NCBI GenBank assembly: GCA_964016885.1 | Contig: OZ024752.1 | Span: forward strand, 26,970,001-27,034,000 | Direction of reading: 5' to 3' | Source of the DNA: Eledone cirrhosa | Lineage: Eukaryota | Length of the DNA stretch: 64,000 bases | Shown: piece after piece, positions 39,105 through 41,879 of the stretch | How positions within the stretch are numbered: the first letter of the stretch is position 1 | Layout of the letters: every line of letters starts with the position of its first letter | Made by a program: the position numbers and the translations under genes | The notes under the pieces: model-generated | What the model was told of the DNA's origin: nothing | Seen by the model: the letters and a program-made list of their open reading frames with translations, nothing else | Database searches by the model: none

Positions 39105-41225
39105 TATATATATATATATACATATATATATACATATAAATATACATATATATATATATATATACATATATATAAATATAAATATGTGTGTGTGTATATA
39201 TATATAGGTGTGTGTATGTATATATATATATGTATATAAGTATGTATATATATATATATATATATATATATATATGTATATAAGTATGTATGTGTATATA
39301 TATATATGTATATTTATTAGTATGTTTGTATATATATATATGTATGTATATAAGTATGTATATATATATATATATATATATATATATATGTATATATATA
39401 TATATGTATATATATATATGTATGTATATATATATATATATATATATATACATATATACATATATATATATACATATATACAAATATATATATATATACA
39501 TATGTATACATATATATATATACATATATATATATATATACATATATATATATATACATATATATATATATATACATATATATATATATATACATATATA
39601 TATACATATAAATATACATATATATATATATATATATACATATATATAAATATAAATATGTGTGTGTGTATATATATATAGGTGTATGTATATATATATA
39701 TATATGTATATAAGTATGTATATATATATATATATATATATATGTATATAAGTATGTATGTGTATATATATATATGTATATTTATTAGTATGTTTGTATA
39801 TATATATATGTATGTATATAAGTATGTATATATATATATATATATATATATATATATGTATGTATATATATATATATGTATATATATATATGTATGTATA
39901 TATATATATATATATATGTATATATGTATATATATATATATATATATATATATATATATATATGTGTGTGTGTATATATATATGTGTGTGTGTATATATA
40001 TATGTGTGTATATATATATATATATATATATATACATATATATATATATATACATATATACATATATATATATACATATATATATATATATATATATATG
40101 TATATATGTATATATATATATATATATATATATATATATGTGTGTGTGTATATATATATGTGTGTGTGTATATATATATGTGTGTATATATATATATATA
40201 TATATATATACATATATATATATATATACATATATACATATATATATATACATATATACATATATATATATATATACATATGTATACATATATATATATA
40301 CATATATATATATACATATATATATATATATATATACATATATATATATATACATATATATATATATATATATATATATATATATATATATATATATATA
40401 TATATATATTGGAAAATGTGTGTAATCCTTGGTACAGTTAGGTATATTAAGACAGGGGGGAAGAAAAAAATGGCTTCACTTGTGCTTTCAACAAATTTAT
40501 TTTCTTCACAAATTTATTTTCTTCACAAAATCAAAAAAGAATTTTTTTCCGGTGTGAAGAAAATAAATTTGTTGAAAGCACAAGTGAAGCCATTTTTTTC
40601 TTCCTCCCTGTCTTAATATACATATATATATATATATATATATATATATATATATATATATATTCATATATATATATATATATATATATATTCATATATA
40701 TATATATATATATATATATATATATATTCATATATATATATATATATATATATATTCATATATATATATATATATATATATATATTCATATATATATATA
40801 TATATATATATATTCATATATATATATATATATATTCATATATATATATATATATATATATTCATATATATATATATATATATATATATATTCATATATA
40901 TATATATATATATATATATATTCATATATATATATATATATATATATATATTCATATATATATATATATATATATATATTCATATATATATATATATATA
41001 TATTCATATATATATATATATATATATATATATATTCATATATATATATATATATATATATTCATATATATATATATATATATATATATATATTCATATA
41101 TATATATATATATATATATATATATATATATTCATATATATATATATATATATATATATATATATATATATACATATATATATATATATATATATATATA
41201 TATATATATATATATATATATATAT
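39105..41225. repeat. Long (TA)n-based arrays, including a TTCA(TA)n higher-order array at 40660-41135 and a small fold-back island at 40410-40620
   Basis: Direct reading. Confidence 0.9.
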
Positions 41226-41879
41226 AAAAGAAGCGAAGTAAGCGGTTATTAAACAATTTTCTAAATAAATTAAAAAAGGATTAAATAATCACCTGTTCAG
41301 ACGCTGTTACCGACCGACGGTTTCATCATTCCGAAAGATTGAAAATCCAACGGATTTCCAATGGAAAGAAATGAATCTTCAGACAGCCCTATTTCCACGC
41401 CATAAGGTATCAAGCCCTATAGCAAGTAAATATTATGCTCCCTGCTCAACGCATGCGGTCAAGCCGTTAAAATGACACACACGCATAATCAGGTCGCTGA
41501 TAAAAGCTGAATATTATAAACATGTCGAATTGCCACTAAAATTAGCAGCATTATTCAACGTTTTGTTCTCTACATAAGGACAATAATTATAGAAGTGGAT
41601 GGATACCTCAACAGGTACAATGTACTTGTAGAAATATTCGAAGTTGTTTATAATACATGTGGTTCAATGGCACTAATTAGAGATACCAGAAGAAGCAAAG
41701 TAAGCGGTTATTAAACAATTTTTAATAACTGTTTAAAAATTGTTTAATAACTGCTTACTTCGCTTCTTTTATATTGTTCTGGTATCTCGAATTAGTGCCA
41801 TTGAACCACATGTATTATAAACAACTTGAATATTTCTAAAAGTACATTGTACCTGTTGAGGTATCCATCCACTTCTATA
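41225..41879. mobile_element. Retrozyme-like R3: ~1.1 tandem units (minus) plus inverted arm
   Basis: GTAAGCGGTTATTAAACAATTTT recurs with period 462 (41242 and 41704); 41735-41879 inverts 41589-41724. Confidence 0.72.
41303..41387 (-). ncRNA. Type I hammerhead ribozyme with long helix II (R3)
   Basis: GCTGT-CTGAAGA-T-TCATTTC..ATTGGAAATCC(GTT)GGATTTTCAAT..GGAATGA-T-GAAA-CCG(TCGGT)CGG-TA-ACAGC. Confidence 0.88.

What the first reader, a model, noticed from the sequence alone, without database searches (positions are those of the whole stretch)
41225..41879. R3: third ~462-nt tandem unit; monomer size converges near 460 nt in three unrelated families
Seen: a 462-nt period with one hammerhead that has an unusually long two-segment helix II, plus an inverted arm that also crosses the same region. 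R1 (457), R2 (460 in its best copy) and R3 (462) share no sequence I can detect but have nearly the same length. Inference: there may be a size constraint on the mobilised RNA, for example circle stability or PLE RT processivity.
Basis: partly seen in the sequence, partly recalled or inferred. Interest (0 to 1): 0.75.

Follow-up and report, generated by a model that had tools for sequence, protein, structure and literature searches.

The report
Ribozyme-bearing Penelope-type passenger retroelement
This is a short non-coding jumping element with a self-cutting RNA motif, of a kind already known in animals, and its length only loosely matches two neighbours, so the proposed size limit is not shown.

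Summary
R3 is real, but it is one unit plus a 33-nt overlap, not an array. It has a minus-strand type I hammerhead with a 51-nt two-segment helix II, a 5' inverted arm and (TA)n on both sides, the known layout of Penelope-like element (PLE) insertions. Coding PLE remnants lie in the same window.

New here: a ~70%-identical, circularly permuted relative at 18215-18600 keeps the long helix II with 4 compensatory pair changes in 20.

The tight '457/460/462' match does not hold. R3's 462 includes a 10-nt deletion (472 with the intact junction), and R2 measures 430-512 depending on an internal (TA)n tract. Only three families were long enough to show a period. Published monomers span 51-972 nt, and coding PLE pieces of 1.3-2.3 kb in the window argue against a processivity limit. 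A loose 430-510 cluster remains. It is best explained by an inherited PLE terminal cassette (390-550 nt here) plus detection bias. The genome-wide test could not be run.

Verdict: a new member of a known kind, a non-autonomous PLE/retrozyme-type insertion.

The parts
41223..41260 (-). 3' end of the element (segment a); its last bases overlap the (TA)n flank by TATAT
41303..41387 (-). Type I hammerhead: helix I 5 bp, core at 41382, helix III 4 bp, predicted cut after 41308, 83 nt upstream of the 3' end
   Evidence: no Rfam hammerhead match
41325..41375 (-). Long two-segment helix II: U.U at the base, 7 bp, 5x5 internal loop, 11 bp, GUU triloop
   Evidence: distal stem pair probability 0.98, proximal 0.20
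41229..41690 (-). One full unit, 462 nt as present (about 472 with the intact junction), 36% GC, no PLE protein similarity
41690..41725 (-). Partial upstream copy (segment a'), about 33-35 nt, with a 10-nt deletion at its junction to the full unit
41726..41744 (.). Apex of the hairpin, with a short 11-nt-period duplication
   Evidence: (41721-41757, period 11)
41733..41879 (+). Inverted arm covering segment a, the intact junction and about 100 nt of the unit's start; ends in a TATA overlap with the (TA)n flank
40621..41224 (.). Left (TA)n-type flank (target microsatellite)
41880..42688 (.). Right (TA)n-type flank (target microsatellite)
18215..18600 (-). E18: diverged, circularly permuted relative of R3 with the same long helix II and a decayed core (core at 18544)

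Best explanation
R3 is a single insertion of a short non-coding passenger of Penelope-like retrotransposons (a retrozyme-type monomer or internally deleted PLE, unit about 470 nt).

Mechanism. An uncut multimeric or circular RNA is bound in trans by a PLE RT/GIY-YIG protein that nicks (TA)n. Reverse transcription starts inside the RNA, about 83 nt downstream of the hammerhead cut site, at a TATAT that pairs with the target. It runs through the ribozyme and about 35 nt past one full unit, and is resolved with a 5' inverted arm that also ends at a TATA.

Shown: the anatomy, the TA overlaps, the conserved long helix II, and coding PLE remnants nearby. Inferred: the RNA template, the trans-acting PLE, the priming, and ribozyme activity. 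With one hammerhead this locus cannot itself release a unit-length RNA by double cleavage.

The similar lengths of R1-R3 most likely reflect the size of the PLE terminal cassette (inferred: promoter, ribozyme, RT start site) plus a narrow detection window, not a physical cap.
For: Layout equals the described PLE layout: partial tandem, adjacent 5' inverted copy, (TA)n targets (PMC8557442 passages). Hammerheads in pLTRs (PMC4209133). Internal RT start in the PLE PAc at ORF nt 111-118 with the ribozyme cut at nt 26, i.e. 85-92 nt apart, and uncut RNA as the main template (PMC11167929); R3's distance is 83 nt.

Window context: RT and GIY-YIG in one ORF piece at 45263-46306 and GIY-YIG at 59632-60195 (2 of 6 pieces had such Pfam hits, both GIY-YIG hits near the cut-off). 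19 hammerhead-like hits against 0.5 in shuffles.

R3: no tblastn hit from 10 PLE-type protein queries. The unit folds as a circle at z -4.3, like R1 (-3.1) and R2 (-7.8, -6.4), unlike 3 coding-PLE 3' UTRs (-0.7 to -1.9) and 6 control slices (-1.4 to +0.5), 25 shuffles each. E18 reads through the a-to-start junction (that part alone scores 55.5 vs 22.3 +/- 3.7, max 36 in 300 shuffles). Both R3 ends overlap the flank by 4-5 nt, while TATA occurs at 4 of 462 positions. Stop-to-end lengths of coding PLE remnants are 389, 502, 552 and about 453.
Against: Only one R3 locus and 33 nt of overlap. E18 leaves 78 nt of the R3 unit (41515-41437) uncovered and does not close its own circle, so the 470-nt unit may be a one-off deletion or template jump. 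The active ribozyme fold is not the minimum: 0.9 kcal/mol above it locally, with pair probabilities near 0.2 for proximal helix II and helix III, and 3.0 above it in the circle. The hammerhead region alone folds at only z -2.1. R3 is not similar to the UTRs of any coding PLE in the window, so its carrier is unidentified. PAc primes without homology in vitro, unlike the TA overlaps seen here. Cut-to-end distances in six other insertions are 138-245 nt, so the match to PAc may be chance. R2's z is inflated by its TA hairpin.
Confidence: 0.72

Rival explanations
1. R3 is the pseudo-LTR of a coding PLE. The 470-nt unit is a one-off product of an internal deletion or template jump joining the start of one unit to the end of another, so its length means nothing.
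For: Single locus. E18 supports only the natural a-to-start junction, which a coding element would also have, and not the join unique to a short unit. Coding PLE ends in the window have UTRs of similar length and end just inside the next ORF start.
Against: No PLE protein similarity in R3. Its composition and folding resemble R1 and R2, not the coding-PLE UTRs. R2, of the same layout, has a full unit at three loci, so short families exist here.
Confidence: 0.22
2. One reading: unrelated families converge on about 460 nt because circle stability or PLE RT processivity caps the mobilised RNA.
For: All three families in which a period is visible fall in 430-512 and share no detectable sequence. 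No hammerhead-bearing unit under 430 was seen. Under a flat 150-1000 null a range of 15 or less has P 0.0009, and under 300-600 it has P 0.007.
Against: With the honest range of about 78-82 nt, P is 0.02-0.17 (computed for 78). n = 3, post hoc, with a narrow detection window. Kilobase coding PLE pieces lie in the window. Published monomers are 220-245 (coral), 350-390 (mussel), 330/350 (axolotl) and 51-972. A narrow within-species range is already described there.
Confidence: 0.12
3. The hairpin and duplication are an assembly or read artefact, or a MITE or microRNA-like hairpin, and the hammerhead is a chance motif.
For: The region sits in long (TA)n, which is hard to assemble. Rfam gives only sub-threshold miRNA-hairpin matches and no hammerhead.
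Against: Arm and direct copy differ by 4 substitutions and 11 gap columns, and the arm holds ancestral bases. Hammerhead score 20.4: 6 such hits observed, 0 in 40 shuffles. Compensatory changes in E18. Many other families show the same layout.
Confidence: 0.03

Closest known systems
Metazoan non-LTR retrozymes (Cervera and de la Pena 2020, PMC7229834; Li, Clavereau and Pollet 2026, bioRxiv 10.64898/2026.07.22.740005)
   Same: Non-coding unit of a few hundred nt, GC under 50%, one type I hammerhead per unit, predicted self-paired circle, co-occurring with PLEs. A U.U mismatch at the base of helix II has a precedent in axolotl HHR_Amex2, which cleaves weakly as a monomer.
   Different: Here only about 1.07 units with one hammerhead. 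About 470 nt is just above the 150-450 range of the 2020 paper. Helix II (51 nt, two stems) is far longer than the canonical 4 bp or the 7-8 bp of PLE minimal hammerheads. A 5' inverted arm and (TA)n target were not mentioned for retrozymes in the parts I read.
EN+ Penelope-like elements with (TA)n preference (Naiad, Hydra; Neptune/Nematis carry the related Zn-finger linker) (Craig et al. 2021, PMC8557442)
   Same: Partial tandem (pseudo-LTR), adjacent inverted copy, microsatellite target; hammerhead near the 3' end as in canonical PLEs.
   Different: No RT or GIY-YIG ORF in R3; the unit is about 0.47 kb, not 3-4 kb. The carrier clade was not determined.
Poseidon PAc of Anolis (Frangieh et al. 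2024, PMC11167929)
   Same: Insertion end lies about 85 nt downstream of the hammerhead cut site; AT-rich target; template read through the ribozyme.
   Different: PAc is autonomous and primes without homology to the target; R3's two ends show 4-5 nt TA overlaps with the target.

Membership tests
Non-LTR retrozyme | Type I hammerhead in the unit | tested here: met
   descriptor-based, Rfam has no match
Non-LTR retrozyme | Head-to-tail repeats of a fixed unit | tested here: inconclusive
   33-nt overlap at one locus; E18 supports the junction but not the whole unit
Non-LTR retrozyme, 'active' locus as defined by Li et al. 2026 | [quoted passage not shown] | tested here: not met
   one hammerhead in 41223-41882; so not filed as an active retrozyme locus
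Non-LTR retrozyme | Non-coding, GC under 50%, a few hundred nt | tested here: met
   36% GC, 462 nt; no tblastn hit; no ORF of 100 aa within the unit
Non-LTR retrozyme | Highly self-paired predicted circle | tested here: met
   z -4.3, 25 shuffles; prediction only
Non-LTR retrozyme | Transcription, self-cleavage and circular RNA in cells | not testable with these tools
   no RNA data; active fold 0.9-3.0 kcal/mol above the minimum
Non-LTR retrozyme | Target-site duplication; absence of PBS/PPT | not tested
   a TSD cannot be read in (TA)n flanks; PBS/PPT were not searched for
PLE-type insertion (non-autonomous) | Partial tandem plus adjacent 5' inverted copy | tested here: met
PLE-type insertion (non-autonomous) | (TA)n target and hammerhead near the 3' end | tested here: met
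PLE-type insertion (non-autonomous) | Optional 30-40 nt tail at one end | tested here: inconclusive
   one locus only; an optional 40-58 nt extension is seen in the coding families F3/F8
PLE-type insertion (non-autonomous) | Homology to the pLTR of an autonomous partner | tested here: inconclusive
   no match to coding-PLE UTRs in the window; rest of the genome unavailable
Autonomous PLE | ORF with RT and GIY-YIG endonuclease | tested here: not met

The most novel reading that the evidence does not exclude
In this genome many unrelated non-coding PLE passengers converge on a 430-510 nt unit because the carrier's RNA-protein complex, or a minimal promoter-ribozyme-RT-start cassette, sets the size. 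They are copied from circles by (TA)n-primed internal initiation at TATA motifs. In the R3 family the covarying 50-nt helix II is a docking hairpin for the PLE protein that also switches the ribozyme. Such hammerheads would be missed by Rfam and by short-spacer descriptors.
Probability: 0.18. Interest if true: 0.6.

Novelty: new member of a known kind. Interest (0 to 1): 0.3.

Why it matters
Modestly. It adds a structurally conserved hammerhead with an unusually long helix II that Rfam missed. It also shows a retrozyme-sized unit carrying the PLE integration signature (partial tandem, inverted arm, (TA)n target), which supports the proposed but mechanistically open idea that PLEs mobilise retrozymes. 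If a genome-wide census did show a narrow size mode across unrelated families, it would give a handle on what the PLE machinery requires of its RNA. The present three values do not show that.

Tried and rejected
Rfam: 0 matches at gathering score in the window. The 32 E-value matches in R3 are hairpin-type, none a hammerhead. The whole-window E-value run showed 150 of 445 rows, dominated by microsatellite noise.

The repeat finder was swamped by (TA)n, and TRF did not report the 462 period among the 150 of 162 rows shown; a masked self-BLAST replaced them. My first descriptor missed R1's hammerhead (extra A after the core); the second found it. The MAFFT alignment of the two hammerheads misplaced the 3' end, so helix registers were set by hand.

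Homology R1/R2/R3: none. Weak scores of R1 and R2 against other elements (z up to 4.4) look compositional and were rejected. Closure of E18 into a circle was not found. Two junction rows were off by one base and were redone. One control is mislabelled (it is 23400-23860).

The protein search with the 59632 ORF gave 4 hits with no informative names, so neither taxon nor PLE clade was fixed. A possible small intron and a short open frame after the hammerhead were seen by eye and not pursued.

No paper proposing a retrozyme size limit, or describing cephalopod hammerhead repeats, surfaced (listings only for most); that library lacks most subscription journals.

Full report
Observation. The non-microsatellite island runs from about 41223 to 41882 between long (TA)n tracts. 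It contains a 33-nt direct repeat at offset 462 (41228-41260 vs 41690-41722); no shuffle of 30 reached the reporting score. An inverted arm at 41733-41879 matches 41588-41725 in 133 of 148 columns. In element sense (minus strand) the order is: inverted arm, 35 nt of the previous unit's end, one full unit, (TA)n. R3 is therefore about 1.07 units, not an array.

Hammerhead. A descriptor scan finds a type I hammerhead at 41387-41303 (minus): helix I 5 bp, helix III 4 bp, cut after 41308, and a 51-nt helix II region of 7 bp, a 5x5 loop and 11 bp. It is one of 2 strict hits against 0 in 100 shuffles, and scores 20.4 in a looser scan where 6 hits reach 20 and none do in 40 shuffles. Rfam finds no hammerhead here or at gathering score anywhere in the window. 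The base of helix II is a U.U mismatch; the axolotl HHR_Amex2 has the same and cleaves weakly (PMC7229834). The active fold is 0.9 kcal/mol above the local minimum and 3.0 above it in the circle, so activity is plausible but unproven.

A relative. Of 21 regions compared with R3, one matched: E18, 18600 to about 18215, minus strand, z 15.5, next best 2.8. It has 141 of 218 columns identical and nhmmer E 2e-8. E18 is circularly permuted: it starts upstream of the hammerhead, passes R3's 3' end and continues about 185 nt into R3's start. That second part alone scores 55.5 against a maximum of 36 in 300 shuffles. Across 20 pairs of helix I, distal helix II and helix III, 13 are identical, 1 changes on one side, 4 on both sides and 2 break. 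A simple mutation null gives P 0.0005 for the compensatory count (two sequences, hand-set registers, and one E18 pair closes a 1-nt loop). The long helix II has thus probably been under structural selection. E18's core is decayed, and it lacks a 4-nt duplication present in R3's loop III. E18 leaves 78 nt of the R3 unit uncovered and does not close its own circle, so it does not prove that the 470-nt unit is family-wide.

Lengths. The arm has 10 more nt at the junction than the direct copy. These bases match the element's left end, and E18 has bases there too. The intact unit is about 472, or 468 without the 4-nt duplication. R1 is 457 at one locus. R2 contains a (TA)n tract and gives 460/456, 434/492 (430 ungapped) and 512 at three loci. 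R1, R2 and R3 share no detectable sequence. I scanned 23 of 24 listed insertions (the long coding PLE was skipped): 17 have no same-strand repeat, 4 are R1-R3 loci, and 2 have internal repeats of 77 and 110-400 nt that do not include a hammerhead. Most are too short on one strand to show a 460-nt period, and the longest same-sense stretch among R1-R3 is about 685 nt. For three uniform draws, a range of 15 or less has P 0.0009-0.007 and a range of 78 or less has P 0.02-0.17, depending on the assumed window. The cluster is suggestive at best.

Context. The window holds 19 hammerhead-like hits against 0.5 expected, plus 6 with a U3-A8-type core, without a shuffle control. There is a broken PLE ORF with RT and GIY-YIG at 44007-46309 and PLE 3' pieces at 27017-27786 and 59632-60198. 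The 3' UTRs of the latter carry hammerheads (for F3; by eye for F8), end just inside an ORF start and show an optional tail. Their stop-to-end lengths are 389, about 453, 502 and 552 nt, bracketing R1-R3. R3 has no protein similarity and no match to these UTRs. Folded as circles, R3, R1 and R2 give z -4.3, -3.1 and -7.8/-6.4, against -0.7 to -1.9 for 3 UTRs and -1.4 to +0.5 for 6 controls. That the host may be an octopus is my recalled impression of a 190-nt SINE-like repeat and was not tested.

Mechanism. Partial tandem, adjacent inverted copy and (TA)n preference are described PLE features (PMC8557442). In the PLE PAc, reverse transcription starts 85-92 nt downstream of the ribozyme cut and uses uncut RNA (PMC11167929); R3 ends 83 nt downstream. 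Both R3 ends overlap the flank by TATAT or TATA, while TATA occurs at 4 of 462 positions. R1's ends behave alike, and R2's arm ends in a short overlap with a (TC)n flank. I infer target-primed internal initiation on a multimeric or circular RNA by a PLE protein in trans. How the arm forms, by fold-back or a second priming, is not resolved; arms are closer to their own direct copy than to other loci (96.5% vs 83-87% in R2). A processivity cap is unlikely given kilobase coding pieces. A general circle-size cap is unlikely given published monomers of 220-390 nt and 51-972 nt. Narrow within-species ranges are already reported there.

What I read. bioRxiv 10.64898/2026.07.22.740005: parts 1-3 of 5, abstract to discussion, supplements closed. 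PMC7229834: parts 2-4 of 6, supplement unreadable. PMC4209133: parts 1-2 of 4. PMC11167929: parts 1-2 of 4. PMC8557442, PMC7761336, PMC13282606 (no mention of ribozymes in its main text) and PMC8490949: passages only. Other papers: search listings only.

Verdict. A real, non-coding PLE-type insertion that works like a non-LTR retrozyme monomer. It is not filed as an active retrozyme locus, because it has one hammerhead, nor as an autonomous PLE. New member of a known kind; the size-constraint reading is unproven and weaker than stated. Interest 0.3.

Noticed in passing
window 17512-18600: E18 abuts, with no (TA)n between, an inverted PLE ORF fragment (about 18015-18128) and the 3' end of a coding PLE (17512-18018). 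This could be co-insertion by template switching, which would point to the carrier, or a later insertion next to an older one.
   Followed up: partly
window 44007-46960: Broken PLE ORF (RT plus C-terminal GIY-YIG, one stop and one frameshift), about 50% GC, with (CA)n-rich 3' region and no hammerhead found by my scans; clade not determined.
   Followed up: partly
window 10170-10762, 17512-18018, 21990-22478, 26768-28340, 59630-60705: Two coding PLE families whose 3' ends stop just inside an ORF start (MTLPK...), with a short end or a 40-58 nt longer tail: the classic optional PLE tail.
   Followed up: partly
window 11852, 11936, 38641, 51102, 56144, 56208: Six hammerhead-like motifs with a U3-A8-type core, a variant reported in Schistosoma PLEs (PMC4209133); no shuffle control run.
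   Followed up: partly
window 15110, 15370, 37953: The R2 unit carries an octamer motif upstream of its hammerhead, suggesting an snRNA-type promoter (motif and link recalled, not tested). R2's hammerhead has U.U at the base of helix II in all 4 scored copies.
   Followed up: no
window 1503-1871, 13346-13878, 15860-16332, 19150-19475: Four copies of one palindromic hammerhead family fold back at nearly the same position, hinting at a fixed 5' stop or template end.
   Followed up: no
window 51015-53124: 2.1-kb non-coding island with hammerheads at both ends in opposite orientation and internal 110/290/400-nt repeats.
   Followed up: no
window 219-404, 3878-4061, 7636-7826, 8919-9114, 24518-24685, 31320-31517, 34180-34371, 34896-35049, 63484-63678: A dispersed 190-nt SINE-like family (80-94% identity); by recall it resembles octopus SINEs, untested.
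   Followed up: no
window 41292-41223 and 18464-18378 (minus strand): Possible small intron just after the hammerhead in R3 and E18 (GT donor-like site, pyrimidine tract, AG in E18 only), seen by eye; PLEs are known to keep a short intron near the pLTR.
   Followed up: no
window 12708-13055 and 47380-48986: A 123-nt tandem (2.8 copies, 98%) without a detected hammerhead; and an exact 66-nt repeat at offset 1541 inside (TA)n, possibly a local duplication or assembly artefact.
   Followed up: no
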